In this document: positions 2,391 to 64,000 of the stretch, one piece after another
Layout: the number at the start of each line of letters is the position of its first letter
How positions within the stretch are numbered: the first letter of the stretch is position 1
Assembly: GCA_964016885.1 (NCBI GenBank)
Contig: OZ024741.1
Coordinates: 158,286,001-158,350,000 of the forward strand
Source: Eledone cirrhosa
Lineage: Eukaryota
Direction: 5' to 3'
Length of the DNA stretch: 64,000 nt
The notes under the pieces: model-generated
Database searches by the model: none
What the model was told of the DNA's origin: nothing
The model's input: only the letters and a program-made list of their open reading frames with translations
Program-made: the position numbers and the translations under genes

Positions 2391-5300
2391 AGAAATAGCA
2401 GCTACATCATCTAAACAAGCTGAACCTCATAGTATTTGATAGGTGTGCTAGAAATAGCAGCTAAATAAGGCAAACCAAATGGTGGTCTATAGCTGTGCTA
2501 GAAATAGCAGCTACATCGACTAAACCTCATGGTGGCCCATAGCAGCTAAATAGGGGAACATCACAGTGGACCATATGTGTGCTAGGAATAACAGCTAAAT
2601 AGGGGGAACCATATGGTGGTCTATAGGTGTACTAGAAATAGCTACATCAGCTAAAAAGGGAACATCATAGTGGTCCATACGTATGCTAGAAATAGCGGCT
2701 AAATAGGGGAACATCATAGTGGTCCATATGTGTGCTAGGAATAACAGTTAAATAGGGCGAACCTTATGGTGGTTTATAGGTGTGCGAGAAATAGCAGCTA
2801 AATAGGGAAACTCATGGTGGTCCATAGGTGTGCTAGAAATAGCTGCTAAATAGGAGGGACTTCATCGTTGTCAATATGAGTGCTAGGTATAGTGGGTAAA
2901 TAGGGGAACCTCATGGTGGTACATAGGTCTGTTAGAAATAGCAGCTACATTACCTAAACAGGGGGAACCTCATGCTCAAGTGTGCTAGAAATAGTAGCTT
3001 TTATAGCGGAACCTCATGGTGGTCCGTATGTGTGCTAGAAATAGTAGCTACATTAGTTAAAGAGGGTAAACTCAATGATGGTCCACAGGTGTGCTAGAAA
3101 TAGCAACTAAATAGGAGGAACCTCATGGTAGACATTAAGTCTGCTAGAAATATCAGCTTAATAGGGGGGAAACTTATGGGTGTCCATAGACGTTCTAGAA
3201 GTAGCAGCGACATAAGTTATGGTTCATAAGTGCGCTATAAAGAGCAGCTAAATAGGGGCAACATTGTTGTGGTCCATAGGTGTGCTAGAAATAGCAGCTA
3301 ATTAGGGGAAACCTCATGGTGGTCCACAGATGTGCTAGAAATAACAGCTAAATAGGAAACCTCATGGTGGTCCATAGGTGGGCTGGGTATTGCAGCTAAA
3401 TAAGGGAAACCTCATGGTGGTATATAGGTCTGCTAGAAATAGCAGCTACATGACCTAAACAAGGGAACTTTATGCTCAACCATAGGTGTGGTAGAAATAG
3501 CAGTTTTTATAGCGAAACCTCATGGTGTCCGCATGTGTGCTAGAAATAGCAGCTATATCAGCTAAACAAGGAGAAACTTGTGGTGGTCCATAGCTGTGTT
3601 AGAAATAACAGCTAATTAGGGGGAACACTCATGGTGATCCGCAGGGGTGCTAGAAATAGCAGCTAAATAGGGGAATCACATGGTAGTCCATAGATCTGCT
3701 AGAAATAGCAGCTAAACATGGGGAACTCATGGTGGTCTATGAGTGTGCTAGAAGTAGCAGCTAAATGGGGAGGACCTCATGGTGATCCGCAGGTGTGCTT
3801 GAAATAGCAGCTAAATATAGGAACCACATGGTGGTCCATAGATCTGCTAGAAATATCAGCTAAACAGGAGGAATTTCATGCTGGTCCATAGGGGTGCTAG
3901 AAATAGCAGCTAAATGGGGAGGGGGGGCTCGTAAAGGTCCATAGGTGTGCTAGAAAAAGCTTCTAAATAGAGGAAACATTATGGTGGTCCATAGGTGTGC
4001 TAGGAATAAAGGCTAAATAGGGGGAATATCATTGCGGTCGAGGGGTGTACTAGGAACAGCAGCTGAATGAGGAAAATTCATGGTGGTCCATAGGGGTGCT
4101 ATAAATAGCAGCTTAATACGGGGGAATCATAGTGGTCCATATGTGTGCTAGAAATAGCAACTAAATAGGGGGAAACCTCGTGGTGATACGCATGTGTGCT
4201 AGAAATAGCAGCTGAATAGGGGAACCACTTGGTGGTCCATAGATCTGCTAGAAATAGCAGCTACCTTAGCTAAACAAGAGGAACCTCATGCTGGTCCGTC
4301 AGGGTGCTAGAAAGAACAGCAAAATCGGGGCAACCTTATTGTGGTCTATAGGTCTGCTAGTAATAGCAACTAAATAGGGGGAACATCATAGTGGTCTATA
4401 GATGTGCTAGAAATATTAGCTAAATAGGTGGAACCTCATGGTGCTCCATAGGTGTGCTGGGAATTGCAGCTAAATAGGGGGAACCTCATGATGGTCCATA
4501 GGTCGATCGTCATGGTTGTCTAAAGGTGTGCTAGAAATAGCAGCTAAATAGGGGGAACCACATAGTGGTCTATATTTCAGCTAAAAATAGAAACTGCGTC
4601 AGCTAAACAGGGGGAACCTCATGGTGGTTCTCAGATGTGTATGAAATAGCAGCTAAATAGGAAACCTCATGGTGGTACATAAGTCTGCTAGAAATAGCTG
4701 CTCAATAGGAGGAACTTTATGGTGGTCGATAGGTGTGTTAGGTATAGCAGCTACATAAGCTAAACAGGGGGAAACAATTGGTGGTCCATATGTGTGCTAG
4801 AAATAGCAGCTAATAGGAGGAGCCTCATGGTGGACAATAAGAGTGCTAGAAATAGCAGCTTCATAGGGGAACCACATGGTGGTCCATGGGCGTTCTGGAA
4901 GTATCATCTACATTAGTTATACAAGGAAACTTCATGGTGGTTCATAAGTGTGCTATAAAGAGCAGCTAATATAGGGGTAACCTTATTGTGGGCCATAGGT
5001 GTTTTACAAATAGCAGCTAACTAGGAGAAACCTCATGCTGGTCAATAGATGTGCTAGAAATAGCAGCTAAATAGGGGGGAACCTCATAGTGGTACATACG
5101 TGTGCTAGAAATAGCAGCTAAATAGAGGAAGCCTCATAGTGATCTATATTTCAGCTAGAAATAGCAGCTACATTAGCTAAACAGGGGTACCTCATAGTAG
5201 TCCATAGGTATGCTAGGAAAAGCAGCTAAATAAGGGAAACCTCATAGTGGTCAATAGATCTGATAGAAATATTATCTAAATAGGTGGAACCTCATGGTGC

Positions 5301-8300
5301 TCCATAGGTGTGCTATGAATTGAAGCTAAATAGGTGGAACCTCATGATGGTCCATAGACGTTCTAGACGTGGCAGCTACAGTAACTAAACAGGGGCACAC
5401 TCATGGTTGTCCACAGGGGTGCTAGAAATAGCAGCTAAATAGGAGAAACCACATGGTGGTCCATAGGGGTGCTAGAAATAGCAGCTAAATAGGGGGAATC
5501 TCATAGTGGTCCATAGATCTTCTAGAAATAGCAGCGACATCAGCTAAATAGAGGATACCTCTTTGTGGTCCATAATGTCTAGAACTATAAGCTAAAGAGG
5601 ATGAAATACATGGTGGTCTATAAGTATACTAGAAATAACAGCTACATGGCCTAAACAGGGGAAACCTCATGGTGGTCGATAGCTGTGCTAGAAATAGCAG
5701 CTAAAAAGGAGGAGCCTCATGGAGGTCCATAGGTGTGCGAGAAAAGGCTTCTAAATTGGGGAAACATCATGGTGGTCCATAGGAGTGCTAGAAATAACAG
5801 CTAAATAAAGGGAACATCATTGTGGTGCATGGGTGTGCTAGAAATAGCAGTTGAATGGAGAAAACTCATGGTCGTCCATAGGCGTGCTAGAAATAGCAGC
5901 TAAATAGGAAACATCATGGTGGTACATAGGTCTGCTAGAAATAGCTGCTCAATAGGAGGAACTTTATGGTGGTCGATAGGTGTGTTAGGTATAGCAGCTA
6001 CATAAGCTAAACAGGTGGTACCTCATGGTGGTCCATAGGTGTGCTAGAATAGCAGCTACATCACCTAAACAGGGGAAACAATTGGTGGTCCATAGGTGTG
6101 CTAGAAATAGCAGCTAATAGGAGGAGCCTCATGGTGGACAATAAGAGTGCTAGAAATAGCAGCTTCATAGGGGAACCACATGGGCGTTCTGGAAGTAGCA
6201 TGTACATTAGTTATACAGGGAAACTTCATGGTGGTTCATAAGTGTGCTATAAAGAGCAGCTAATATAGGGGCAACCTTATTGTGGTCCATAGGTGTTCTA
6301 CAAATAGCAGCTAACTAGGAGAAACCTCATGCTGGCCAATAGATGTGCTAGAAATAGCAGCTAAATAGGGGGAACCTCATAGTGGTTCATACGTGTGCTA
6401 AAAATAGTCGCTAAATAGAGGGAGCGTCATAGTGATCTATATTTCAGCTAGACATAGCAGCTACATTAGCTAAACAGGGGTACCTCATGGTGGTCCATAG
6501 GTGTGCTAGGAAAAGCAGCTAAATCGGGGCAACCTCATTGTGGTCAATAGATTTCTTAAAAATAGCAACTAAATAGGGGAAACCTCATAGTGGTCAATAG
6601 ATCTGATAGAAATATTATCTAAATAGGTGGAACCTCATGGTGCTCCATAGGTGTGCTATGAATTGAAGCTAAATAGGGAGAACCTCATGATGGTCCGTAG
6701 GCGTTCTAGATGTGGCAGCTACAGTAACTAAACAGGGGCACACTCATGGTTGTCCACGGGTGTGCTAGAAATAGCAGCTAAATAGGAGGACACTCACGGG
6801 GGACAATAAGTGTACTAGAAATAGCAGTTTCATAGGGGTGAAAATCTTGGGTGTCCATAGGTATTCTAGAAGTAGCAGCTACATTAGATATACAGGGAAA
6901 CTTCATGGTGGTTCATAAAGAGCAGCTAAATAGGGGCAACCTTGTTGTGGTCCATAGGTGTTCTACAAATAGCAGCTAAATAGGAGAAACCACATGGTGG
7001 TCCTTAGGAGTGCTAGAAATAGCAGCTAAATAGGGGGAACCTCATAGTGGTCCATAGATCTGCTAGAAATAGCAGCAACATCAGCTAAATTGAGGATACC
7101 TCTTTGTGGTCCATAATGTCTAGAACTATAAGCTAAATAGGATGAAATACATGGCGGTCTATAAGTATACTAGAAATAACAGCTACATGGCCTAAACAGG
7201 GGAAACCTCATGGTGGTCGAAAGGTGTGCTAGAAACAGCAGTTGAAGGGGGAAAACTCATGGTCGTCCATAGGCGTGCTAGAAATAGCAGCTAAATAGGG
7301 GGAACCTCATGGAGGTCCATATATGTGCTAGAAATAGCAGCTACCTCAGCTAAACAGGAGGAACCTCATGCTAGTCAATAGGGGTGCTAGAAAGAGCAGC
7401 TAAATCGGGTCAGCCTTATTGTGGTCTATAGATCTGCTAGAAATAAAAACTAAATAGGGGGAACATCATAGTGGTCAATAGACGTGCTAGAAATATTAGC
7501 TAAATAGGTGGAACCTCATGGTGTTCCATAGGTGTGCTAGGAATTGCAGCTAAATAGGGGAAACCTCATGATGGTCCATAGGTGTGCTAGAAGTGGCAGC
7601 AACATTAGATAAATAGGGGAAACCTCATTGTTGTCCTTATTTGTGCTAGAAATAGCAACTAGATAGGTCAACCCTCATGGTCGTCCATTGATCTGCTAGA
7701 AATAGCAGCTACATCAGCTAAACAAGGGGAACCTCATGCTGTCCCATACGTGTGCTAGAAATAGCAGCTAAATAGGGGGAACTTCATTGTGGTCTATAGG
7801 TGTGCTAGAAATAGCAGGTACATCAGTTAAATAAAAGAAACCTTGTGGTGGTCTTTAGGTTTGCTAGAAATAGCAACTAAATAGGTGAACCCTCATAGTG
7901 GTTGACAGATGTGCTAGAAATAGCTGCTAAATAGGGGAACCTCATGCTGTTCCGTAGGTGTGCTAGAAATAGCAGCTAAATTGGAGCAACCTCATAGTAG
8001 TCCATATAATCTGCTAAACATAGCAACTGCAGGAGCTAAACAGGAGGAACCTCATGCTAGTCAATAGGGGTGCTAGAAAGAGCAGCTAATTATAGGTGTG
8101 CTAAAAATAGCAACTAAATAGGGGGAACCTCATAGTGGTCAATAGATGTGCTAGAAATATTAGCTAATAGGTGTAACCTCGTGGTGCTCCATAGGTGTGC
8201 TAGGAATTGCAGCTAAATAGGGGGAACCCCATGATGGTCCATAAGAGTTCTAGAAATAGCAACTAAATAGTCGACTCTCATGATAGGTGTGTTAGAAATA

Positions 8301-9356
8301 GCAGCTAAATAAGAAACCTTATGGTGGTCCATAGGCGAGGCTAGAAATAGCGACTAAATAAGATGAACTTCATGGTGGTCCATATGTGTGTTAGAAATAG
8401 CAAACAAATTGGGAAAACCTCATGGTGGTACATAGGTCTGCTAGAAAGAGTAGCTACATCACCTGAACAGGAGGAACATCATCCTCAACCATAGGTGTGC
8501 TAGAAATAGCCGCTTTCATAGCGGAACCTCGTGGTGGTCTATAGGTATGCTAGAAATAGCAGCTACATCAGCTAAACAGGGGAAACACATGGTGGTCCAT
8601 AGGTGAGTTAGAAATAGCAGCTAAATAGGAGGGAACTCATGGTGGTCCATAGGTGTGCTACAAATAGCAGCTACATTAGTTATACAGGGAAACTTCATGG
8701 TCGTTCAAGCAGCTAAATAGGGGCAACCTTATTGTGATCCAAAGGGGTGCTAGAAATAGCAGCTAAATAAGGGGAACCTCATGGTGGTCTTTAGGTGTGC
8801 CAGAAATAGCAACCACATCAACTAAACTGGGGACACCTATTGGTGGTCCATAAATGTCTAGAAATAGAAGCTAAATAGGATGAACCTCATGGTGTTCTAT
8901 AAGTGTGCTAGAAATAGCAGCTAAATGGAGGGATCTCATCATGGTCCATAGGTATGCTAAGAATAGCAGCTAAATACGTGGAACATCATTGCGGTCCATG
9001 GATGTGCTAGAAGCAGCAGCTGAATGGGGAAAACTCATGATGGTCCATAGGCATACTAGAAATAACAGCTTAATAGGGGAACCTAATGGTGGTCCATAGG
9101 TGTACTAGAAATAGCAGCTAAATAGGGGAAAACTCATGGTGGACAATAGGTATGCTAAAAGTAGCAGCTACATCAGCTAAACAGAACATGATGGTGGTCC
9201 ATAGGTGTGCTAGAAATAGCAGCTAGATAGGGGAACTCATGGTGGTTTATAGGTGTGCTAGAAATAGCATCTACAATAGCTGAACTTCATGGTGGTCCAT
9301 AGTGTTGCTAGAAATAGCAGCTAAATCGAGCGAACCTCATGGTGGTCCATAGGTGT
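2385..9356. repeat. ~7-kb satellite array of ~49-50-bp monomers plus a ~60-bp variant
   Basis: Consensus ATAGGTGTGCTAGAAATAGCAGCTAAATAGGGGAACCTCATGGTGGTCC repeated roughly 130-140 times; the variant inserts ~ACATCAGCTA; no ORF of 60 aa or more in any frame. Confidence 0.97.
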
Positions 9357-41236: not shown

Positions 41237-44137
41237 TCAGATATTCAGGACGTATCGGAGGGTTCTTGCTGTTCCAAGCAAGCATGCCTTTTGAAGCGTT
41301 CCAAAAAGCGTGAAGGAGCCGATTTTCTTTAACCATCCCTGGAAACTTTTGGAGATAGTCCCCAGTGCGCCTATGACAATCGGGATCACTTTGACTTCAT
41401 GGCAGTTCCAAATCCTTTTCACCTCCCACTTTAGGTCCTGGTATCGGTTAATTTTCTCCCTCTCCTTCTCTTGCACTCTCGTGTCGAACGGGCAGGCCAC
41501 ATCCACAATCAGACACGATCTTTTTTCTTTGTCCACAACCACCAGGTCAGGTCTATTGTGTTCCAGTTTTTTGTCCGTCTGTATCCTAAAATCCCACAGC
41601 ACCTTCACCTGATTGTTCTCCATCACCGCCTCTGGCCTATGCTCATACCATTTCTCAGAATGTGGTAAATTGTTTACTTTGCACAGGTGCCAGTGGATCA
41701 CCCTGCCCATCACATCGTGTCTCCAGCCCTTATAGTGGGTCTGGGCTAGGTGTTTACACTCGGACACAATGTGAGCCACAGTCTCCTCTCTCTCTCCACA
41801 GATCCTGCACAGTGGGCTAGCCTCCTCCTTGTAAATATGGTGCTTCAACCACTTCGTTTTGAGGGCCTGCTCCTGCGCAGCCATTAGCATTCCTTCTGTA
41901 GCCTTTTTGAGGTCTCCTCTTCTCAACCAGTTCCATGTCTGTGGATCTCTAAATTCAGTTTTCTCAAAGAAGGTACTATGAAGGGATTTTCCCTTAAGGC
42001 TGCTCTTCCTCCTTGATGTTATTTCCTCCTTGGACATCCCCTGGCCTACTGTCCCCTCCTTCAGTACAGTTCTGAGCATTGGCTCCTTACTATGGGTCAC
42101 GTATTTGTATAGGTTGTTTTTCTCCATCTGAACACAGTCCTCTATGCTGATAAGACCTCTTCCACCCTCAGATCTCCTTAGGTAGAGTCTATCGACATCA
42201 CTCCTCTTGTGGAACATGTTGTAGATAGTCAATAGCTTCCTAGTCTTCCTATCCATTTCTTTTTGTTCAGCAACATTCCATCTCAGAATTCCCGCACTGT
42301 ACCTAATAATAGACACAGCTCGGGAATTTACTGCGCTTATGGCATTTCTGCTGTTCAGATGTGACTTCAATACGCTCCTTACTCTCCGAATGTATTCAGT
42401 TCTTAACAATTCCTTCATTTTTTTGTTCTTTATGCCATCAGCCTCCAGAACGCCCAAATACTTGTATCCTTCCTCAGAGTCAATTTCCTTTATCATTTCA
42501 CCTGTTGGTATCTGGATCCCGTTACTTCTGCTCAACCTACCCCTCCTCATCACAATGACTCCACATTTACCAATACCAAACTGCATACATATATCACTGC
42601 TGAAAATACGGACAGTGTCAACAAGCACATCCAACTCCTTCTCACTTTTCCCGAAGAGCTTAAGATCGTCCATGAAGAGGAGGTGATTGATGGTAAGCTC
42701 TCCCCTTCCCAACTTGTATCCTGCTCTCACTTTTCGCAGCATAATGGTCAAGGGCATCAGGGCAAGGACAAATAACAGAGGGGACAGGCTATCTCCCTGG
42801 AAGATACCTCTCTTGATCTTCACGCTTCCCAAGGATACTCCAGTTGATGTCAACTCTGTCTCCCAGGACCCCATACTCCTGCCCAGCAACTGTCTGATGT
42901 TGTCTGCCACCCTGAAGATCTCCAGGCTTTTGGTGATCCAAGAATGAGGCACCATGTCAAATGCCTTTCTGTAGTCTATCCATCCCATGGCAAGATCAGT
43001 GTGTCTCCTCCTGCAATTCCCCATTACCATCTTATCAATAAGTAACTGGTCCTTTGTACCACGTGACTTCTTTCGGCATCCTTTCTGTTCGTCCGGTAAC
43101 AAGTTGTTTGTGTGGAGGTGATGGTAGATTTCCTCAGACACAATGCTCGTCAACAGTTTCCACATTACGGACAGACATGTGATAGGTCTATAGTTGGTAA
43201 CATCATTACCCTTGATTCGGTCTTTCATTATCAGAACTGTGGTACCTTTTGTCAACCACTCTGGCACCTCACCCGACACCAAGCAGTCATTGAACATGGC
43301 CGTCAGCTTCGGGTGGAGGTATGTTAAATGTTTAATCCAATACCCCTGCACACCATCTGGGCCTGGTGATTTCCAGTTGGTTAGTTTTTTGGCCTGCCCC
43401 TTAAGAGTTTCAACTGTGATACTCAAATCAGTTTGTTGTTGTGCCTGCTCACCGATCTCCCTCTGTACTGTCTCAATCCACCCTGCCTGGACATTATGTC
43501 TAACATCCTGCTCCCATATTCCTCTCCAGAATGTTTTAGTTTGCTCCGCCCCAGGGATCAAGTCGTTGCCTCTTTCTTTCCCCTCAAGCTGTCCAAACAG
43601 CATCTTCTGGTTGTTGTCGAACATGCGGTTCTGTTTATACTGACTGACTCTGTTCTCGTATCGCCTGATTTTTGCACTCTTTGCTACAATGCGTTGCTTC
43701 AGTTCCTCTATGATAATATTTAGCTTTTTCCTCCTAGTTTTGTATTTTATTTCCAGTCTATTTTTAGTGCCTATGTTTTTTAGTGTCCCATTCAGTAGTG
43801 ACTCAAGCTTTCCTATGTCATTTCTCATTTCCCCGATTTGCCCACTCAGTCGCTTCTTCCACCACGGCTCTGCTCTTTCTTGTCTGTTGTTTCCTCTCGC
43901 TTTTATACCAAGTAGTTTCCTCACCGTATTTGCTGTTGCTTTGAGGATATTGTTGCACTGGTGAAGGCTCCTCGTCTCAAGGTATGGGATGACTTTGTTT
44001 ACCTTAGCTGTTGTTTCTTTTAACTTTTTCCTGTCTACAAATCTTAGCTTCATAGGTCTCCCACTATCATTGTTCAATTCATCTACCACTAAATTTAGGA
44101 TGTCAACCGAATCTTGTCCTAGCCCGTCAGCATTCAT
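41237..44137 (-). CDS. R4/Dong-clade non-LTR retrotransposon ORF (RT, CCHC, restriction-like endonuclease), 966 aa with no stop; element ~41160-44198
   Basis: NYRPITCL, IDYRKAFDMVPH, GIFQGDSLSPLLF, FMDDLKL, YKYLG, CRICGEREETVAHIVSEC, RHD, RPDLVV..DVACP..KEREK; embedded in (TAA)n at both ends. Confidence 0.96.
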   Translation of the reverse strand: MNADGLGQDSVDILNLVVDELNNDSGRPMKLRFVDRKKLKETTAKVNKVIPYLETRSLHQCNNILKATANTVRKLLGIKARGNNRQERAEPWWKKRLSGQIGEMRNDIGKLESLLNGTLKNIGTKNRLEIKYKTRRKKLNIIIEELKQRIVAKSAKIRRYENRVSQYKQNRMFDNNQKMLFGQLEGKERGNDLIPGAEQTKTFWRGIWEQDVRHNVQAGWIETVQREIGEQAQQQTDLSITVETLKGQAKKLTNWKSPGPDGVQGYWIKHLTYLHPKLTAMFNDCLVSGEVPEWLTKGTTVLIMKDRIKGNDVTNYRPITCLSVMWKLLTSIVSEEIYHHLHTNNLLPDEQKGCRKKSRGTKDQLLIDKMVMGNCRRRHTDLAMGWIDYRKAFDMVPHSWITKSLEIFRVADNIRQLLGRSMGSWETELTSTGVSLGSVKIKRGIFQGDSLSPLLFVLALMPLTIMLRKVRAGYKLGRGELTINHLLFMDDLKLFGKSEKELDVLVDTVRIFSSDICMQFGIGKCGVIVMRRGRLSRSNGIQIPTGEMIKEIDSEEGYKYLGVLEADGIKNKKMKELLRTEYIRRVRSVLKSHLNSRNAISAVNSRAVSIIRYSAGILRWNVAEQKEMDRKTRKLLTIYNMFHKRSDVDRLYLRRSEGGRGLISIEDCVQMEKNNLYKYVTHSKEPMLRTVLKEGTVGQGMSKEEITSRRKSSLKGKSLHSTFFEKTEFRDPQTWNWLRRGDLKKATEGMLMAAQEQALKTKWLKHHIYKEEASPLCRICGEREETVAHIVSECKHLAQTHYKGWRHDVMGRVIHWHLCKVNNLPHSEKWYEHRPEAVMENNQVKVLWDFRIQTDKKLEHNRPDLVVVDKEKRSCLIVDVACPFDTRVQEKEREKINRYQDLKWEVKRIWNCHEVKVIPIVIGALGTISKSFQGWLKKIGSFTLFGTLQKACLLGTARTLRYVLNI

Positions 44138-44198
44138 CTCCTCAGTGGCCGTATCTCTGTTCCAGGTATTATTTATCTCAGTATTCAGATCATTGTCT

Positions 44199-44250
<52 letters not shown>

Positions 44251-44268
44251 CATCATCATCATCATCAA

Positions 44269-44490
44269 GGGTGGTGGATTGGCAGTATCGGTAGAGGGTC
44301 GGATGCCATGCTTTGCAGCATAGAGTTACAGCCCTTTATGATCTGAGTTCAAATCCTGCTGAGGTTAATTTTGCCTTTCATCCTTACGGGGGTCGAAAAA
44401 ATAAAGTACCAGTCACGCACTGGGGTCGATTTAATCGACTGTCCCATTCCCCAAAATTGCTGGCCTTGTGCTTATATAAGAAACCATTAT
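44269..44490 (+). mobile_element. SINE family A, long-tail variant
   Basis: Consensus head and core plus the ggggtcgatttaatcgac segment. Confidence 0.9.
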
Positions 44491-46442: not shown

Positions 46443-46814
46443 CAATGAAACTACTGGAAAGACTGAGACAAAAGCCCCAGAGATTCTTGCAGCTGCTCAT
46501 TATTCTGCTTGTTTCCTGCATCATTAGTTGCAAGTTTACAACTCCAAGTTCTGATATGTCCCGAAGCTTCAATTACAGAATGATCTTAAACAACAATTTC
46601 AGGATTGGTGTAGCTTCAAATGCAAGTCATCCAAAGGGAAAAAGTATTAATGGTGTTATAGAATGCAGTCTAATATGTATGGAGATGATTTCACCAAAGT
46701 GCACTTACTTCACCTACAACTTGAAAAGAAGAAAGTGTAAGAAATTCTTTAATGGTCACCCTGTAGTTTTGCAGCCTTCAGATGGTCACTACTCTTCCTA
46801 TATACAGATTGAAG
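46443..46814 (+). CDS. Coding exon A of a host gene: hydrophobic signal/anchor plus PAN/Apple domain
   Basis: Acceptor tgtctttcag at 46442, ATG at 46445, donor gaag|gtaaga at 46814; FLQLLIILLVSCIISC followed by ECSLIC-x6-CTYFTYN-x5-C, the PAN cysteine pattern. Confidence 0.8.
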
Positions 46815-51858: not shown

Positions 51859-52010
51859 ACTTTTCCTGGTATAAGGTTTTCTTTTACAAAACTAAATCTA
51901 AGATCAATCCTGCAGATGCCTTCCTTGGTAATTTTAAAAAAAACGAGTCAAGAAAAAAACCCTACCGAGATTATATTATTGACCTCTGGGAACCTCTTCA
52001 AATCAAGGAG
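51859..52010 (+). CDS. Coding exon B of the PAN-domain gene
   Basis: Long poly-T tract plus cag acceptor at 51858 and gag|gtaaaa donor at 52010; phase-1 join to exon A gives the open frame DFSWYKVFFYKTKSKINPADAFLGNFKKNESRKKPYRDYIIDLWEPLQIKE. Confidence 0.75.
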
Positions 52011-53453: not shown

Positions 53454-55280
53454 CTAGCAGAAGAACCGCCCTCGGGCAGTATTCTGCTAGTATATATAGT
53501 GTGTTTATTGATATATGCAAATATATATGCAAATAGATATAATACGTAAATTGACAATATGCACATAAACTGAACAAAGACTGTGTTACACTTACTTCTG
53601 TAATCAGTAAAGTAATCCATGATACATTTAGAAAAAAGGCAATAATGGAAAAGCGATGAAACTGTTGACGGAAAATGTTCATGAATCTTCACTTGAGAAT
53701 GTCGATGGGAAGCTTCAAGTAGTGAATTTGAAAATAGATGCTGCTGGTATGAATGAATGAATTACATTTACCAATATGAAGAGTTGACCTTTGCTATATT
53801 GTTGTTTTACTGTATTCACATATAGGCTTCTTCAGTTTTTGTAGTGTCCCTTTTCTAGCAGTTAAAAAGTAACTGAAATGCATTTCAAATAAAAGAGAGT
53901 GATAGCTGTTTCACATCACTGTAGAATTTCTTTGTAGACACAGTTGTCAGCAAACAGACCCTTTCATTTTATATTTTTATATTTCCTTTTTTTGTCACTC
54001 GTGATAATGCAACATACATCTGACCATGTGAGAAGAATTGTGTTGGTAGATATACACCTATCTTTTCAAATGACTGCCCTTGTGCCTTGTTGCATGTAAG
54101 GGCAAAGGCTGGTTTGATAGGAATTTGCTTGCAAGTAAAGGTGAAAAGGAGCTCAAGCTCTTGGTATCCTTGGGATTAGCAACCATATTCCAGCATTGGG
54201 ACCCAATGCCACTTCAGCTTCAATTACATGATTATGTAAACTGATGATGATGTAGCGTGTACCATTGCAATGCTCGTTTAGAGGATCCAGATTTCTCAGA
54301 AGCATAACGCAACTGCCTTTCTTCAGTTTAAGATTGTGTGTTGGGAAGCCTGATAGGGTAAGTTGGTTGATGAACTCAATTGGATATTCCGTCAACTTAG
54401 TCATTGGCTGAAACAATATGTTCTTCCTGCCCTCGCTCATACACGACCATTTGTTCCCCAGGTAAATGGCAAGGCAACTTTTCAACTGGCATATTCGATG
54501 ATGTAATGGAAATTTATAGATTCTCCAGAATGCTTCACTGGCTAAGATTTACCATGCATTGATATAGGTCTCAATCTCATTTTGGGCATGGATACAATTT
54601 CCTTGATCATCCTTAATAGTGAAAGTGATCTTGTCTGATCCTTTTGTGATGTACTTATATAAGTGCTTAACAGCCTTGACACTGTGGACAACCTCACAAT
54701 TGATGTGGCACTGATATCTCAATGAGAGGAAAGGGTTGTATGGAACAATCCTACGATTATCAACAGTAAATTCTTGACCTTTAAGTTGGATTGTATGGGT
54801 GTGACCACCATGCTGTCTATCCCTTCTTCTATATTCCGGAAAGGAATTTTCGGGAACAAATTTGGTTTGTCTGACTGCCTTGGGATAACTTTTTGAGCAA
54901 TGGCGTTGTTGTCCTAGCCCTTCCATACATGAGCACATCATATTAGCTTGTCCACATGGGCCATGAATGTTGCAGGATGTGATGATCTTATGCAGAAATG
55001 GATTGGTCTCTTTATCAGAAATCTCACAGTACACTACCTAATAAATGGCATCAGCAGTTTTGGGCTTGCTATCTTCAGCCATTATCAGCAGAATATGAGG
55101 CCTCGTTTTCTGCCACTCTATTGTAGCAGAATGAGCCACAACTTTTCCTAGGACATTTTTTTTCAGTATGTCATCCATGAGGCTGTCATACTTGATCTTG
55201 AAGACTCTTGCACAAATATCAGGATGGTCTGCTTTCCCATGTGTCGAACTACAGTCATCGAATTCTGAAAGCACTCACTG
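53454..55280 (-). mobile_element. Helitron, internally deleted Rep/Helicase pseudogene with intact 3' end
   Basis: Rep: PDICARVF, IEWQK..PHILL (HUH), HGPCG, VPYNP..HINCE..LYKYITKG. Pif1 helicase: VMLLRNL..CNGTR, IPRI, AFALTCNKAQGQS, FSHGQMYVALSRV. 3' hairpin plus CTAG|T at 53454. Confidence 0.93.
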
Positions 55281-55479
55281 TAGAAGCGAGGGGAACCATA
55301 GATTGAGCAAGAACAATTCTCCGGCCTGCACTTGTTTCAGACGCTAGACTGTGCCCATACTGGAGTACCACGATTAAAGGATTTTCTTGACCTCAATTCC
55401 AGTATATATATTTTAAAATCTAGTACTTATTTTATTGATCTCTTCTATTCTCTTTGAAACGTGTGTGTGTGTCTATGTG

Positions 55480-55750
55480 TTCATATGTATGATGGTACCC
55501 TATCGCTTGCGATGAGGATTCTTCCAGCTAGGTTTCTCAAATGGAACTGCCTGAAATTAAGGTGAGAGTGTCTGAGCATTCCATAGACACGTATAACGGA
55601 GGGTTTCAGGGTGGGACTACATTGGTTCTTTGACTTACTGGCAGAGTACACTTTTTTTTTACTTCAGTGGAGAGAAGAAAGGCGAAATAAAGTGTCTTGC
55701 TCAAGAACACAACGCACTGATGGGATTCGAACTCTCAACATTACAATCAC
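55480..55750 (-). mobile_element. Degenerate SINE, family B-related
   Basis: gaaataaagtgtcttgctcaagaacacaacgc..ggattcgaactc core and B box. Confidence 0.7.
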
Positions 55751-55950
55751 GAGACACACACACGGACATAAACACACACACATAAGCACACATACACAGA
55801 TACAGTAACACACATATGCACACACACACGTAAGCAACAGATACACACACACATATACATATATATACACATAAACGCTTATACACACATATACACACAT
55901 ATACACACACATAAACACACCACACACACATATATATATATATATATATG
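55750..55950. repeat. (CA)n / (TA)n microsatellite
   Basis: Direct observation. Confidence 0.9.
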
Positions 55951-57466
55951 TACGTATGTGAGGTAGTCTATGTACTTATGCAATGGTAAAGAGAATATAC
56001 TCCTGTGGATTGAATCATTGGTACTGTAGTAAATTATCCTTTCCTTATTTCCACATCTTCCCATACATACACACAGCCACATATACAGATAACCAGCCTT
56101 CGTGCATGCGCAGTACAGACCAGATTTCTCGCATGCACAGTACGAACCAGCCATGATGTATGCGTAGTACAGACCAGCCTTTGCGCATGCGCACTTCTGA
56201 CCAGACTTTGCGCATGCGCACTTCAGACCAGATTCCACGCATGCTCACCTTGGACCAGACTTTGCGCATGCGCATTTTGGACAAGCCTTCGTGCATACGG
56301 ACCAGCCTTCACACATGCGCAGTAAGGACCAGCCTTCGCGCATGCGCAATACTGACCAGCTTTCGCGCATGTGCACTTTGGATAGCCATCGCGCATGCGC
56401 AGTATGGGTCAGACCTCGCGCATGCGCAGTACGGACCAGCCTTTGCGTATGCGCACTTCTGATCAGCCTTCGCGCATGCGCAGTACGGACCAGCCTTCGT
56501 GCATGAGCAGTACGAACCAGCCTCGCGCATGTGCACTTCGGGCTAGCCTTCGCGCATGCGCAGTATGGACCAGCCTTCGAGCATGAGCAGTACGAACCAG
56601 CCTTCGAACATGAGCAGTACGGACCAGCCTTCGAGCATGAGCAGTACGAACCAGCCTCGCACATGTGCACTTCGGGCTAGCCTTCGCGCATGCGCAGTAT
56701 GGACCAGCCTTCGAGCATGCGCAGTACGGACCAGCCTTCGAGCATGAGCAGTACGAACCAGCCTCGCGCATATGCACTTCGGGCTAGCCTTCGCGCATGC
56801 GCAGTATGGACCAGCCTTCAGGAATGTGCACTTCGGACCAGCCTTCGTGCATGTGCTCTTCGGATCAGCCTTCACGCATGTGCACTTCAGACCAGCCATC
56901 GTGCATGCGCACCTCGGACCAGCCTTCGCGCATGCGTACTTCGGACCAGTCTCACAGATGTGCAGTATGCACCAGCTTTCGCGCATGCGCACTACGGACC
57001 AGACTTCACGCATACGCAGTACAGACCAGCCATCGTGCATGCGCAGTACGGACCAGCCTTCGCGCATACGCAGTTCGGACCAGTCTTCGCGCATGCGCAC
57101 TTCGGACCAGCCTTTGCGCATGTGCACTTCAGATCAGCCTTCGCGCATGTGCATTTTAGAACAGCCTTCGCACATGCGCAGTACGGACCAGCCTTCGCGC
57201 ATGCGTACTTCGGACCATTCATATATTTCTGTCACTAATTTTCTCCTAATGCAGTTTATATATAATATCGTCTTTTTTTAATGTATCATGGATTACGTTA
57301 CTGATTACATAAGAGAGTGTAACACAGTCTTCGTTCAATTTCTGTGTATATTGTCAATTACGGTTTTATTTGATCATATCTACATGCATATATACTTGCG
57401 TATAATATCAATATACACACTACACATGCAAGCTGAAAACCACCCGTGGCATGGTTTTTCTGCTAG
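55950..57466 (+). mobile_element. Probable non-autonomous Helitron carrying a tandem array; 5' boundary uncertain
   Basis: 57265-57466 is homologous to the reverse complement of 53454-53645 and ends in a hairpin plus CTAG|T. Confidence 0.75.
56092..57217. repeat. 27-bp tandem array, ~41 units, CGGACCAGCCTTCGCGCATGCGCAGTA
   Basis: Direct observation; 9-aa periodicity in overlapping ORFs; central palindrome GCGCATGCGC. Confidence 0.97.
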
Positions 57467-57489
57467 TTATATTAAGTGAGTTTTAAAAA

Positions 57490-57566
57490 AAAGAGTTAAT
57501 AAATAAAGAGTTAATAAATAAATAAAAACTTAATAAATAAATAAAGAGTTAATAAATAAATAAAAC
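57490..57566. repeat. Short AT-rich tandem (aagagttaataaataaa)n
   Basis: Direct observation. Confidence 0.8.
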
Positions 57567-57627
57567 GTTATACTTGTTTTACCCTCCCACATTCAATTAA
57601 ACCGAACGCTATCATGACTGTATGTGT

Positions 57628-60600
57628 GTCATCATCATCACCGTTTAACGTCTATCTTCCACGCTAGCATGGGTTTAGAAGGGAATTGTCCCACTTGAGG
57701 CAAGATTGGTCGTCTCGCTCGTATGGGACTATCTGGCAGGTTGGTTTATACGGCTAGATGCCCTTCTTAACACCAACCACATTTACAGTGTGGACTGGGA
57801 GGTTTTTACCGTGTTACCTACACGGCCACCTTACAGCGTGGACTGTGTTTTTTTGTCGTGACACCTACACGGCCTCATATATTTAGGACTGGATGTTGTG
57901 GTGCCAACATAACTTTACAGAGAAAAGTGTGCTGTTGATGGAGGTGGGAGAGTTGGGGTAGTGGGAGGGTGTGTATATTTGATTAAGAGGTGCCTACTGA
58001 CAGTAGGTCTCGCTTTGTATTTAGGCAAGGCGGCTTTTCTGTATTAATGCGTAGCGCCAAAGATCTCGGTCCAGTGACATTGTCTTGGAGAGGTGTAAGA
58101 GGTGTAAGTCGGAATTTATCAAATCGTCCCAGGTTTTTCTGGGTCTGCCTACTACGTAACTTCCGTCAATTTTGATCGCTCTGCACTTTTTTATACAGCT
58201 GTCGTCTTTCATGCGCATCACGTGACCATACCAACGTAGTCTTCTCTCGAGTAAACAGCATCTGATCCCTCTTATACCTAATTTCTCACTTAGTTCATTT
58301 ATGCCCTGCTGTTCACATATATTACTATTACACATCCAGCGGAGCATGCATGGTTCGTTCCTCTCCAGTCTGCGCAGATCCTCTGCACACAATGCCCATG
58401 TCTCACTGCCCTGTAACATAACTGTTTGTATGCAGGCATCATACAGTCTGCCTTTCATTTTTAGAGAGAAACCTTTAGCGGTCAATAGTGGTATAAGCTC
58501 TCTGAACTTTTTCCATCCCGTTCTGACTCTGGCTACTGTACTTTCGGAGCACCCTCCACCACTGCTGATTTTGTCACCCAGGTAACTATTTCTATAGAGC
58601 CATCTGGGCAATAGAAGGAGCTAGTATCCTGTGGGCACTTGCTACTTATTGCACCTGAGCACCGGCCACATATAAAATCTACGTTCTTAGATAGCTTACC
58701 TGTGATCCCACTACATCTTTTATGCACCCATACTTTGCATTTGAGACATAAAATGGCATTTCTGCTTACTCCTTTCCTACATACTGAGCATGGCCATTTC
58801 CCAGAGGGGACCTGTGCCCTATTTTCCTTCCTACATACTAGACAAGTTAACTTTAAGGCCTTTTGATTCTAGGCCATGCTTCCATGTTTGGAATTTCTTC
58901 TCTAGTTCAGCCATCGATTCAGCTATGAGCGTAAGATCGTCTGCATAGAGAAGTTCCCATCTTGAAGCCAGTCTTGAACTCCTCTGTTATAGCCTAAAGG
59001 GCAAAAATAACAGGAGGAGGCTAAGGACAGAGCCCTGATGGACACCAACTTTTACGCTAAATTCTTCACTATATTCGTTGTTAATTCTAACCTTGCTGAT
59101 GTTTCTTTATACATGGCTTGTATAGCTCTCACAAGCCATTCATCAACACCTAGTTTTCTAAGGGTCCACCAGATTATGGCGCGGGGGATTCTGTCAAATG
59201 CTTTCCTCAAGTCAACAAAAGCTAAGTATAGGGGTTTACTTTTAGCTAGGTACTTCTCCTATAGTTGTCGTACAAGGAAAAGGGCGTCTGTGGTACTTTT
59301 ACCTGACACAAACCCAAACTGCATTTCGTCTAGATCAATTTGCTCTCTGATTAGTTGCGCTATAACTTTTTCTGTGACCTTCATGACCTGGTCCATTAAT
59401 TTAATGTCTCTATAGTTTTCTCTATCTAGGGCATCTCCTTTGCCCTTGTAGCAGTTAATGATGATGCTGCTACGCCAGTCATTTGGTATGACCCAGTTCT
59501 GTATGACTTGGTTTACTATCCGAGAGACCATAGTGTGTCCCACCGTTGCAGATGCTTTCAGCATTTCAGCAACTATCTCCGAAGGCCCAGCTGCCTCGCC
59601 TGTCTTCATATCTTTGATTGCCTTACTTATTATATTACCTTCAACTTGCACTGCTGGTCCCTCTATTGGATCGATGTGGGGCAGACTATCTTTGTCCCAT
59701 TTATTCTCCTCATTTAGTAGCCTCTCGTAGTGACACTTCCAAGCTACCTTCTTATCAGCGTCAGTGATGGCAAGTACATCATCATCATTACGGACACATT
59801 TCTCCCCGACAATATCACGGTTTTCCTTGACACATTGCATAGCAATCCTGAACACCTCATGTTTTTGTTCCTCGAGTTGTAGAACATGCTTGAACTTTCT
59901 TTCCTCTGCTTCCCTTCTTGCGAAGTACACTTGTCTCCTAGCTTCCCTGCAGGCCACTTGATAGTCTTCTCTACTTCCCCCATCCCGCCATACTTTCCAA
60001 GCCTGCTTTTTGGCCTTAATCGACACCTCCACCTTACTGTTCCACCACCAAGTTACTCTCCTCCTGCCTATAGGTCTGCTCCAGCCACAGATTTCATCTG
60101 CCGCCTTCAGCAGGTTAACTTTCAGGAATTCCCACTGTTCCTTTATATTGTACGACTCTAATTGCTCTTCCTTACTGTCAAAAGCATCAAGTAATATTCT
60201 TTTAAATTTGTTACTGGCTGTGGGGTCCTTTAACTTCCATATTCTTCTCCTTAGGATAGTCTTCCTCTGTTGTCGTGTATGTCTCGTCCTGACTATGAGG
60301 TCGCTAACTATGAGGCTATGTTGGGAGGTGCATTCTTCATGGGGGAGGAATTTAGTGTTTACAACAGACACTCTGTCTCGTCTTCTGGTAAGGATATAAT
60401 CTATCTGACTGGCGTGTTCCCCTGATCTATAGGTGATCAAGTGATTGTCTCGTTTTTTTAAGTTTGTGTTACAGATAGTTAGGTTATTTGCGTCACAGAA
60501 TTCCAGGATTCTGGAGCCTTCGTCATTTCTAGTACCAAACCCATAGCCTCCATGGATTCCGTCATAGCCGTCACAATGTTGTCCAACATGACCATTTAGG

Positions 60601-61390
60601 TCGCCAGCAATAATTATGTAGTCACTGTTGGTTATTTGGGAGGTAGTGAGCATTAGCGACTCATAGAATATGTCTGTTATAACGCCAGGCAGTCCGGATT
60701 GGGGTGCATACGCGGATATTATTGTCACAGTAGTTCTATTTAGGACAAGTCTTATTTTAATTATTCTGTCGTTCACTCTATTTACGTCTATTATCTTATC
60801 TATCCATTTTTCTGCTAGCATGATTCCTACTCCACCCAGCCCATTGTCATTTCCCACCTAGAAAAGTTTATAGCATCGGTTTTCATCCACAATGAATTTA
60901 GCAGACGCACCCCTCCACCTGGTCTCTTGAATATAGCAAACATCAACTTCCTTACGTTCAAGCATCTCTACAACCTCGTTAGAGCGACCTTTTAAAGTGC
61001 CTACATTCATGGTACCAACTCTGAAGTTTTGGATTGCGTTTGGTGGGTGGGAAGGATGAGGCGCAGGGAGAGGTGAGGTAGCTGGGGTTATGTTAGCCAT
61101 CCGCGGTCGAAATAAAGATGAGGAGTCCTTGCATTCTCGTCCGGCAACAGGGGGTGAATTTATCTTTATCTTTGACATTGTCATTGAGTGTCCAGATTTT
61201 TCAGACTCTCCAGAATTCCATAGTCCATCTAGCATAGCGAAAAGCAACTAGGTCTAAACTTAAGAAGTGATAGCCGAGGCAGTGGTTTTGTGAAAGAGAT
61301 TGGTAGGAGAAACATATTATAAGCCGCTGAATTATGATTGGACCAAATAATAATGGTGGCGAGTGGAGGCAGGGGGGAAGGGATCTGGGG
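57628..61390 (-). mobile_element. Near full-length RTE/BovB-like LINE (APE, RT, PHD-like finger, C-terminus), inactivated
   Basis: ORF pieces 60858-61247, 59259-60857 (532 aa), 58533-58727 and 58021-58611; NVGTL, IQETRW, SAYAPQ, GDLNGHVG, QIDYIL, SQH, LYADDL, LRWYGHV; UTR and (GAT)n tail. Confidence 0.96.
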
Positions 61391-61392
61391 CA

Positions 61393-61882
61393 GTTAGCGA
61401 GAAGGTATTTTAAAATATAATCCTAGAAATTCGGCCATAATTAAACGAGCATATAACAGTATAGCGCTCTCTAGACAAAGGGAAATAGCTAGAGTTAATT
61501 CCCGTAGAATTTCTAGAATATTTCTTGAACTTCCGTTCCAGGTATTATAAAAGAAAGAGCAAAGAGCAATCTCCCTCTTTTGGCAGCAGGCTCTCGAACT
61601 GACCACACCAAGCACAACTATGTTAAGTTTTTCTAATCCTTATTTCAGGATTACACCATATCATGTCACGAGGTACGTTTTGTTACCAAATTGTAATACA
61701 CTCACTACAATAAATACAAGTTGTTATTGATACTCGTTTTGAGATATTCGTTATGCTTCATTTTATTACGCTGAATGTACAAATTACATAAAGGTTCTTC
61801 TTTATCTTCTTTCAAATTAAATTAATGGTTGGCATGCAGTGGTATTTACTGGAGTAAATAACCCTATGACCAACTCACTAAA
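61393..61882 (+). mobile_element. 5' LTR of the Gypsy element; left boundary approximate
   Basis: TATAAAA at ~61545 and AATAAA at ~61710; ends tatgaccaactcactaaa like the solo LTR; followed by a PBS. Confidence 0.7.
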
Positions 61883-61883
61883 G

Positions 61884-61903
61884 TGGTGACGCGACGTTTG
61901 AAC
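61884..61903 (+). promoter_or_regulatory. Primer-binding site, tRNA-Trp-like
   Basis: TGGTGACGCGACGTTTGAAC resembles TGGTGACCCCGACG, the complement of the tRNA-Trp 3' end, 1 nt after the LTR. Confidence 0.65.
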
Positions 61904-62001
61904 ATAAGATTTCTCCTGAAAATCATCTCTCTCGTTTTCTGTTTATCCGACCAAGTTTTGTCTATGAGAATTCCTCGCTCAGCATCCACCGTGTCACAAT
62001 T

Positions 62002-64000
62002 ATGAGCAACACATCGTTACCAGCGTATTCTGGCGATGCTAAATTGTGGTTTGCCCAGCTAGATGTGTATTTTGCGGCCAACGGAGTACAGGCAGCACAG
62101 CAAAAACTACACGTGCTAATCAGTGGAATTCCCGCTTCGCTAGCAACTACAGTAAAGGACATCATCACGGATCCTCCACAAGGCGCTTCCTATGAGTCTC
62201 TGAAGTCAGAGGTACTGCGTAGGAACAGTAGGTCGTCTGAGAGTAGATTTCGTTCCTTATTAGAGGATGAAAATCTGGGGGACAGAACTCCTTCAGAGTT
62301 TTTACGGCGTATCCAAGAACTCTGTGATGTTGCGCCTAAAGTCAGTTCCTTCGTAAAAAAAGTTATTCTTCTCCCATTTGCCAACCAATGTGCAAATCGT
62401 ATTGGCGAATATGGTTGAAACCAGTTCGATAGAACAAATTGCTGCCTCTGCGGACAGAATTATGGAATTTTCTAGGGGACCTACCTCGGCTGATTCGGTC
62501 ATTGCTTCTTCTATTCTTAAGAAACAGCCTGCCTCACCTAGTGAGGAAGCCATATTGAGAGCTATTGATGGGTTAACACGTCAAGTAGCTAAACTGTGTC
62601 GTGATCGAGCGCCACCTTTTCTTCTAACCGACGTACGAACCCCCCAGCCAACAGTTCTTCTTTGTGTTGGTACCATGCGCGTTTCAGTGATAAGGCACAT
62701 CATTGTATCAAGCCCTGTTCTTTTTGGGGCATCGGAAAACTAAGTTTGGAGAGTCTGGGCACGGCAGACCTCTCCCTTAACATTTCGGCTTGTCGTGCTT
62801 TCTTCATCAGATACCGAGTCTCAAACAAATCATTCATGGTCGACACAGGATCAAGTTGTAGTATTTGGCCCTTACGATTCAGCTCTACCAAGCCAACTTT
62901 TTCCGGTATTTCCTTGTATGCAGTGAACCAGTCTCCTATAAAAAAAAACTATGGACAGATATCTTTATAATTGGACCTAGCTTTGCGTCGAGATTTTAAA
63001 TGGATTTTCGTCATTGCCGACCTACGTCATCCTATTCTCGGTGCGGATTTCTTACACCACTATTCACTTTTGGTAGATGTCAGGAAACAGAAGCTTGTGG
63101 ATAATACCACATCCTTATCTATGCCTACTCGTAAATCTACTGCTGCTGCTGTCAGTCCATCGTTTTTTGTGTCTGCCGCTGGAAACTAGTTTCATGCACT
63201 CCTTACTTCGTTTCCTGAGTTAACGGATATTTCATTTAAACCTACCTAGGCAGCCCACTCGAGTCAACACTTCATTATAATGACTGGTCCACCTGTTTTC
63301 TCTCGTCCACGAAGGTTGGCTCCGGATAGACTAAAAAAAGCCCGAGACGAGTTTGAGCACATGCTCCAGCTCAGTCTAATACGACCTTCCACCAGCCCAT
63401 GGACATCTCCACTACACTTGGCTCGAAAGGGTGAGGCGGATTTTAGATTGGTAGGAGATTACCGAAGACTTAACGCTATCACCACACCTGAACCTACAGG
63501 ATTTTTCATCCGTTCTGCATGGATGCACAATATTTTCCAAAATTGATCTAGTACGTGCATACCAGCAGATACCCATGAATCCAGAGGATATACCAAAGAC
63601 AGCCGTGACCACCCGCTTTGGTTCATTTGAATTCCTGTCCATGCCTTTTGGCTTGCGGAATGCCTCTAGCACGTTCTAACGTTTTATCGATGAAGTCATG
63701 CGTGGATTGGATTTCGTGTTTGCTTATGTGGATGACCTCCTGATAGCCAGCGACACAGCTAAACATCATCAGCAACATGTATCTCAGTTATTTCAACGTC
63801 TTCAATCGTACCCGGTCAGAATCAACCCAGCTAAATGTGTGTTTGGTACAGCTTCACTGGAATTCCTAGGACATCTGATAGATTCAGAAGGCATTCGACC
63901 TCTGCCATCTAAGGTGGAAGTGATTGAGCGAATCGCACTCCTCACCTCATTGAGGCAGTTACGTCATTTCTTAGGATTAATCAACTTTTATCGTCGTTTC
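62002..64000 (+). pseudogene. Ty3/Gypsy gag-pol (gag, protease, RT), degenerate, truncated by the window end
   Basis: Gag LWFAQLDVYF, LGDRTPSEFLR and CWYH.RF..A..C..PC; protease VDTGS..ILGADFL; [40 protein letters not shown] and AYVDDLLIAS; several stops and frameshifts. Confidence 0.95.

What the first reader, a model, noticed from the sequence alone, without database searches (positions are those of the whole stretch)
55950..57466. Helitron-borne array of ~41 NRF1/EWG-type palindromes (GCGCATGCGC)
Seen: a 1.1-kb array of 27-bp units, many carrying GCGCATGCGC or one-base variants, forming a CpG-dense island in a CpG-poor window; it lies directly upstream of a Helitron-type 3' end. Known: YGCGCAYGCGCR is the methylation-sensitive binding site of NRF1/Erect wing factors, and Helitrons often carry and spread tandem arrays. 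Inference: this may be a mobile multimerised transcription-factor cassette, sitting ~4 kb downstream of exon B of the PAN gene. Many variant units show CG>TG/CA changes, suggesting past methylation.
Basis: partly seen in the sequence, partly recalled or inferred. Interest (0 to 1): 0.75.

Follow-up and report, generated by a model that had tools for sequence, protein, structure and literature searches.

The report
Transposon carries telomere-neighbour NRF1 repeat
The repeat of NRF1-type binding words is cargo inside a broken rolling-circle transposon, which likely picked it up from an older repeat family found beside internal telomere-like tracts and spread it through the genome, where most copies, this one included, show the mutation scars of methylation and are likely silent passengers.

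Summary
The array is real: 42 units of 27 bp, but only 12 exact GCGCATGCGC (25 within one mismatch). The true host is a minus-strand RepHel-derived Helitron (3' end at 53,454) whose N-terminal coding part was replaced by captured DNA holding the array; none of 14 copies lacking that cargo has an array. A sister unit, 2 of 27 bases different, forms older composite blocks at 12 mid-chromosome sites, 7 within 500 bp of degenerate (TTAGGG)n, and at 0 of 7 true telomere junctions; one site also shares the Helitron's other cargo. CpG transitions are 4.1-fold enriched in Helitron-borne cores and 1.2-fold in sister blocks, and track each copy's own flanks. The host encodes NRF1 with its base-reading residues, but these arrays hold at most about 5% of 24,766 genomic sites; binding and transcription are untested. 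Best reading: a captured, site-dependently methylated passenger. Bold reading: the donor is a convergent TERRA-promoter-like repeat. Earlier scan notes describe other Helitron-borne satellites here; a sequence look-up found none for the sister block.

The parts
53454..53490 (-). 3' terminus of the host Helitron: long hairpin that includes the terminal CTAG, followed by T
   Evidence: (fold -12.9 kcal/mol, DNA parameters)
53491..54152 (-). 3' part of the host Helitron (end of helicase region and non-coding tail)
54153..55329 (-). Broken RepHel remnant (Helitron_like_N, Rep region, Pif1_2B), with an internal deletion of about 1.5 kb near 54,386 and in-frame stops
55330..56091 (.). Captured patchwork that replaces the RepHel N-terminus: unique segment from the junction, a short interspersed-repeat fragment (label by eye), CA-rich tract, left flank
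56092..57217 (.). 27-bp minisatellite, 42 units, 12 exact GCGCATGCGC cores
57218..57466 (+).
57467..57628 (-). Host Helitron continues past the nested CTAG (shared by all 8 array-bearing copies found from the nested end)
57629..64000 (.). Later retroelement insertions that split the host (LINE with endonuclease domain, then a DUF7041 element); the host resumes at window-equivalent 67,171 and ends near 67,700 (L056:3,700)
46445..46814 (+). Exon A of the neighbouring gene (weak PAN_1 match)
51859..51927 (+). Exon B (69 nt, AG/GT); a further candidate exon lies beyond the Helitron at L056:7,616-7,783, so the element is likely intronic and antisense

Best explanation
The array is internal cargo of a non-autonomous Helitron subfamily that likely captured it from an older 27-bp repeat family living beside internal telomere-like tracts, was likely copied by RepHel protein supplied by intact relatives, and was likely methylated according to each landing site, so that this copy is likely a silent passenger. 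Steps: (1) shown: host termini, RepHel remnant and position of the array; (2) shown: the RepHel N-terminus is replaced at one fixed junction; (3) shown: a sister unit 2 of 27 bases away exists outside Helitrons, and one site (C6:41.01 Mb) joins sister-type units to the same cargo pieces without RepHel; (4) inferred: direction of transfer from sister family to Helitron; (5) inferred: mobilisation in trans by rolling-circle copying; (6) shown: CpG transitions in excess and varying by copy; inferred: germline methylation set by the insertion site; (7) from the literature: methylation blocks NRF1; untested here.
For: Termini: 15 of 16 5' ends read TC and 13 of 16 follow an A; 19 of 22 3' ends read CTAG and 21 of 22 precede a T (array-bearing and full-length copies pooled). 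Of 20 loci fetched from the RepHel side, 14 stop matching the array subfamily at or before the junction and hold no array unit; N-terminal RepHel was read in 4 of these; 5 carry the cargo (4 with array), 1 is cut short. Sister majority unit differs at 2 of 27 positions; its diagnostic 20-mer occurs 161 times, the first 100 listed at 9 sites plus one stray. Sister blocks differ 7-13% from their majority (unit misregister may inflate this), Helitron parts 2.5-5%. In 29 of 30 best loci the captured segment is joined to RepHel; the exception is L278, also the most divergent of 43 copies (5.3% against 0.4-3.9%). Core CpG/non-CpG transition ratio 4.1 (3.4-5.1) in Helitron arrays, 1.2 (0.9-1.7) in sister blocks; 3.9 in RepHel, 6.2 in the captured segment. 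Per-array CpG loss runs 4-30% over 47 arrays (this copy 15.7%, median 14.3%) and follows the same copy's flank CpG loss (rho 0.44, p 0.006, 37 of 47 arrays) but not flank divergence (rho -0.01).
Against: The NRF1 core is better kept than the spacer: transversion ratio 0.63 (0.55-0.72) after gapped alignment, about half in in-register sister monomers, and all 12 variants of 10% frequency or more that are not CpG transitions fall in the spacer (read; chance about 0.004 if uniform). This fits selection on the motif at some stage, though palindrome self-repair or unit misregister would do the same. 4 of 47 arrays show CpG loss of 6% or less, and this copy keeps 12 exact sites. Unit-level core transversions are equal in both families (0.029, 0.030), so units alone do not order them. 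L278 could be a decayed, rearranged Helitron copy. An octopus methylome study reports low methylation of transposons (PMC9476566, passages), so the decay may be historical or germline only. The array sample is biased to well-kept arrays.
Confidence: 0.68

Rival explanations
1. Mobile NRF1 cassette: a share of the copies, perhaps this intronic one, are bound by host NRF1 and act as enhancers or promoters.
For: 12 exact high-affinity sites here (Kd 0.31 uM for the consensus, 2- to 12-fold weaker for single changes, PMC10810270 Table 2 passage); host orthologue keeps residues equal to R206, K221, N242, R244; core better kept than spacer; a low-decay tail of copies; precedent in C. elegans (PMC6927752, passages).
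Against: Core CpGs are not protected; this copy has average decay; arrays give at most about 5% of genomic sites; copy number of units runs from 3 to over 100 with deletions and inversions.
Confidence: 0.16
2. Other origin: the unit arose inside the Helitron, or both families stem from a third source such as the NRF1-bearing tail of a Penelope-like element, and the sister blocks are not the donor.
For: Each family has private spacer variants; the tail of one retroelement family (L164, L174, L181) resembles the unit by eye (not tested by alignment); only one bridging locus was found.
Against: Parent RepHel copies have no unit to amplify; sister blocks are more diverged and carry extra structure (internal inversion, GGAA-core 10-bp repeats) absent from the Helitron; the first L278 units are intermediate at the two diagnostic positions.
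Confidence: 0.12
3. The units act in transposition, as hairpin plus CTRR-like stop signals that end or break rolling-circle copying.
For: Each unit is a 10-12 bp palindrome followed on the element's strand by CTGG and T; adjacent units can pair (-11.4 kcal/mol); many copies are deleted at the array.
Against: Array ends in 57 segments show no common break at that motif; most truncated arrays join other internal parts of the element or TA tracts (read by eye); complete copies run through the array to the true end.
Confidence: 0.04

Closest known systems
Cg_HINE and other Helitron-borne central repeats of Crassostrea gigas (PMC7492417, 12 passages read)
   Same: Non-autonomous rolling-circle elements that disperse a short tandem array related to a satellite elsewhere in a mollusc genome; the paper names capture versus intrinsic origin as the two scenarios.
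   Different: Host here has canonical TC / hairpin-CTAG / A|T ends and 3 kb of RepHel remnant; the unit is a 27-bp exact factor motif; a candidate donor family and a bridging locus can be named.
HSE-bearing Helitrons of Caenorhabditis (PMC6927752, 12 passages read)
   Same: Clusters of sites for one transcription factor spread by Helitrons.
   Different: There binding is shown, autonomous copies carry the sites and almost two-thirds of all sites lie in Helitrons; here binding is untested, the coding parent lacks the array and the share is at most about 5%.
Human 61-29-37 TERRA promoter repeats (PMC6600276 and bioRxiv 10.1101/2025.05.15.654290, 12 passages each; PMC5087959 search listing only)
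   Same: For the sister blocks: CpG-rich ~28-bp tandem repeats with NRF1 sites in each unit, next to TTAGGG tracts, also at interstitial sites, with and without the tract.
   Different: Absent from 7 of 7 terminal junctions seen; orientation to the tract varies; blocks also abut other satellites; no transcript or promoter test; homology not tested and unlikely.
Canonical Helitron (HLE1) non-autonomous derivatives (PMC11417382, 12 passages read)
   Same: TC start, hairpin + CTRR end, A|T insertion, shared termini with coding relatives, captured DNA.
   Different: 3' hairpin includes the terminal CTAG itself; a small relative is nested in reverse inside the 5' region.

Membership tests
Canonical Helitron (HLE1) | 5' TC start | tested here: met
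   15 of 16 ends; this copy's own start is eroded into a TA tract
Canonical Helitron (HLE1) | 3' hairpin + CTRR | tested here: met
   19 of 22 exact CTAG; folds
Canonical Helitron (HLE1) | Insertion between A and T | tested here: met
   13 of 16 5' flanks, 21 of 22 3' flanks; some exceptions are head-to-tail joins with other Helitrons
Canonical Helitron (HLE1) | RepHel domains | tested here: met
   Pfam PIF1, Pif1_2B_dom, Helitron_like_N
Autonomous Helitron | Intact full-length RepHel frame in the array-bearing subfamily | tested here: not met
   About 400 N-terminal codons replaced at one junction, stops and deletions
HLE2 / HINE | T|T insertion | tested here: not met
   A|T flanks
HLE2 / HINE | Subterminal inverted repeats; RepHel clade | not tested
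   No search for subTIRs and no RepHel tree were run
NRF1 binding site cluster | Intact GCGCNTGCGC consensus | tested here: met
   12 of 42 units
NRF1 binding site cluster | Host NRF1 with base-reading residues | tested here: met
   One locus, five exon matches, C15:1.72 Mb; alignment to 8k3d with numbering from PMC10810270
NRF1 binding site cluster | Sites unmethylated | tested here: inconclusive
   Only past methylation is readable: CpG loss 15.7% here; present state unknown
NRF1 binding site cluster | Bound in cells, drives transcription | not testable with these tools
   No chromatin data; see Tried and rejected for the run search
HSE-type Helitron rewiring (C. elegans) | Helitrons hold a large share of the factor's sites | tested here: not met
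   At most about 1,250 of 24,766
TERRA-promoter-like repeat (sister blocks) | Adjacent to telomeric repeats at chromosome ends | tested here: not met
   0 of 7 terminal junctions; 0 of 30 contig ends examined
TERRA-promoter-like repeat (sister blocks) | Adjacent to interstitial telomeric repeats | tested here: met
   7 of 12 sites within 500 bp; two of the 7 are a tandem duplicate
TERRA-promoter-like repeat (sister blocks) | CpG-rich unit with NRF1 sites and no methylation scar | tested here: met
   54% exact cores; CpG ratio 1.2; neighbouring non-core parts 0.6-1.5, so not specific to the motif
TERRA-promoter-like repeat (sister blocks) | Promoter activity into the TTAGGG tract | not testable with these tools
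   No RNA from this organism was laid

The most novel reading that the evidence does not exclude
The donor is a convergently evolved counterpart of the human 29-bp TERRA promoter: unmethylated NRF1-site repeats that drive transcription into interstitial TTAGGG tracts (perhaps relics of old chromosome ends), and a Helitron hijacked this promoter and scattered it to 100-250 sites, where local methylation switches each copy on or off.
Probability: 0.1. Interest if true: 0.85.

Novelty: new member of a known kind. Interest (0 to 1): 0.45.

Why it matters
It is a case where the likely donor of a Helitron's central repeat, a bridging locus and the array-free parent all still exist in one genome, so the capture-versus-intrinsic question for Helitron tandem repeats can be tested directly. 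The same 27-mer in two settings also records methylation history: scarred in dispersed copies, clean beside internal telomere tracts. If the sister blocks prove to be NRF1-driven promoters, NRF1 repeats beside telomeric DNA would have arisen twice, in humans and in this animal.

Tried and rejected
Array as promoter of an intact transposase: rejected, the subfamily lacks the N-terminus and the parent lacks the array. Sister block as present-day subtelomeric repeat: rejected for the ends assembled; many ends lack telomeres in the assembly and not all chromosomes were seen. NRF1 protection of core CpGs: not seen. A first core-versus-spacer estimate without gaps (0.53) was redone with gapped alignment (0.63). 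Sequencing runs: no RNA holder listed; of 8 runs laid on one sister block only X1 (contigs, kind unknown) covered it; the blanks are no evidence on expression or on other species. The 211-bp piece before the L278 array is a separate high-copy repeat (3,183 candidates), so it gave no L278 family. Rfam gave only low-complexity hits for the hammerhead-like stretches of the retroelement tails. No homologue for exon A among longer proteins and no Pfam match for the candidate downstream exon; the middle exon needed by phase was not found. Literature: no paper held all of Helitron, tandem repeat, transcription factor binding, NRF1; searches listed nothing on this repeat; PMC13282606 (4 passages) does not mention it; supplements were not opened and repeat libraries in them could hold the family.

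Full report
Observation. The window lies on contig C2 of a 3.0-Gb animal genome (earlier scan notes call it an octopod, which I did not test). A 27-bp array spans 56,092-57,217 with 42 units. Twelve cores are exact GCGCATGCGC and 25 are within one mismatch, against 0.18 expected. CpG o/e is 1.08 against 0.37 elsewhere. Of 38 core changes in 31 distinct gap-free units, 22 are CpG transitions. Exon B of the neighbouring + strand gene ends 4.2 kb before the array; a further candidate exon with good splice signals lies beyond the element, so the element is likely intronic, though a middle exon required by phase was not found.

The stretch 57,218-57,466 has 3,058 first-look candidates. Of 19 other best copies, 11 have no array within 1.5 kb; 10 of these 11 show their own A|TC start, mostly about 480 bp upstream. 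The 8 with an array all continue past the CTAG into the same DNA as the window. The small element is therefore nested in something larger, and in this copy deletions of about 280 and 560 bp trimmed both sides of the array.

The host. Ten 20-kb stretches place the larger unit from 53,454 to beyond 57,629. It reads on the minus strand: hairpin + CTAG|T at 53,454, Rep and PIF1 remnants, the array, the nested element in reverse, and a TC start that in this copy lies near window-equivalent 67,700 after 9.5 kb of retroelement insertions. Termini fit canonical Helitrons (definitions from PMC11417382, passages). From the protein side (150 scored of 3,832 candidates) I fetched 20 loci: 14 leave the array subfamily's sequence at or before one junction and hold no unit and no exact motif, 5 carry the cargo (4 with array), 1 is cut short. 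N-terminal RepHel was read in 4 of the 14. So the array subfamily lost about 400 codons and is non-autonomous. Of 57 array segments held, 53 have subfamily parts beside them; the rest are one with no flank in view, one internal inversion and two from a sister family.

Share of sites. The exact 10-mer occurs 24,766 times (the reversed control has more CpGs and is not a fair null). An array-context pattern occurs 1,090 times, at least 132 in sister blocks, and catches 311 of 404 array sites: at most about 1,250 sites, 5%, in an estimated 100-250 arrays (about 53 distinct ones held). Of 20 other sites picked from the first 50 listed on C1 (not random), 15 are one GIY-YIG retroelement family.

The sister family. 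One locus led to blocks whose majority unit differs at 2 of 27 positions. They are composite: AAACG-rich repeats, inverted then direct units, 10-bp GGAA-core repeats (ETS-like, label recalled) and AT-rich spacers. Twelve sites were examined, all internal (27-56% of chromosome length). Seven lie within 500 bp of degenerate TTAGGG tracts, one beside a GTTTGG variant, four beside other repeats or none. None was seen at 30 contig ends, including 7 visible terminal telomere junctions with 5-19 kb of adjacent DNA. The diagnostic 20-mer has 161 matches; the 100 listed fall at 9 of these sites plus one stray. At C6:41.01 Mb (L278) sister-type units follow the same captured segment, starting at the exact RepHel junction, and the same 130-bp piece, without RepHel; it is the only such case among 30 best loci and the most divergent of 43 copies. 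Sister blocks are more diverged (7-13%) than Helitron parts (2.5-5%). I infer capture from the sister family; unit-level divergence is equal in both, so the order rests on flanks and on the array-free parent.

Methylation record. Core CpG transitions are 14.1% against 3.4% at other core C/G in Helitron arrays, 4.1% against 3.5% in sister blocks. Non-core parts of the blocks are also unscarred, so this is a property of the region, not of the motif. Helitron flanks are scarred like the arrays. Loss varies 4-30% among 47 arrays of 8 or more units (duplicated units inflate the spread) and follows the same copy's flanks (10 arrays dropped for too few flank CpGs). This fits methylation set by the landing site, in line with gene-body methylation in octopus (PMC9476566, passages), which also reports low methylation on transposons overall. 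Core CpGs are not spared relative to spacer CpGs.

NRF1. The genome has one orthologue that keeps the base-reading residues of the human structure (PMC10810270, passages). Binding to unmethylated units is therefore likely in vitro, untested. In favour of a role at some stage, the core is changed less than the spacer and common non-CpG variants avoid it; palindrome repair or misregister are untested alternatives.

Comparison and verdict. It works like oyster Helitron-borne central repeats (PMC7492417) and resembles C. elegans HSE Helitrons (PMC6927752) in form but fails their share-of-sites feature. The sister blocks resemble human 29-bp TERRA promoter repeats (PMC6600276; bioRxiv 2025.05.15.654290) in unit size, motif and neighbour, but are missing from true ends. 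All papers were seen as search passages only; no supplements were opened. Verdict: new member of a known kind with a traceable donor; interest 0.45; the promoter reading of the donor stays open at about 0.1.

Noticed in passing
L161, L163, L165, L166, L168, L170-L173, L175-L180 (around position 500): The commonest source of exact NRF1 words in a 20-site sample is a GIY-YIG (Penelope-like) family, with ETS-like, NRF1 and YY1-like words in a row just after the frame and a hammerhead-like stretch further on (motif labels recalled; Rfam gave no hammerhead hit).
   Followed up: partly
L164:440-620, L174:440-620, L181:1440-1620: A second retroelement family has the NRF1 word at the same relative place, in a context that resembles the 27-bp unit by eye; no Pfam match for its frame.
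   Followed up: partly
G000 C1:217.75, C2:192.18, C2:229.95, C3:150.93, C3:165.86, C4:101.47, C6:41.01, C8:30.88, C8:31.03, C13:26.36, C13:26.39, C14:23.92 Mb: Sister blocks sit at seams between simple-repeat arrays near the middle of chromosomes; fusion relic or centromere-near satellite was not resolved.
   Followed up: partly
L268, L270-L273, L280, L354: A 32-bp telomere-like satellite flanks the sister blocks on the side away from TTAGGG on C8, C13 and C14.
   Followed up: no
array-bearing copies, search listings: Copies cluster in the interior of the four largest chromosomes; on C1 none was listed before 143 Mb.
   Followed up: no
L070 (C1:304.73 Mb), L035 (C1:304.79 Mb), L158: One array has grown to about 6 kb, one is homogenised to a variant without exact cores, one holds an internal inversion.
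   Followed up: no
L027:2890-2940, L018, L126, L343: Head-to-tail joins in which one Helitron's CTAG end sits directly before another's TC start.
   Followed up: no
window-equivalent 67,400 (L056:3,400) and nested element copies: A CCGGAAGT word (ETS-type, recalled) lies in the 5' region of the host, of the full-length parent and of the small relative.
   Followed up: no
window 2,439-9,356: A 7-kb array of ~50/59-bp units, unrelated to the finding.
   Followed up: no
window 41,237-44,335 (-): A 1,032-residue open frame of a LINE-type reverse transcriptase (label by eye), apparently intact.
   Followed up: no
L276:8,883-10,000 and L277: An almost perfect (AATCG)n tract of over 10 kb, CpG-rich and unscarred, abuts the C1 sister block.
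   Followed up: no
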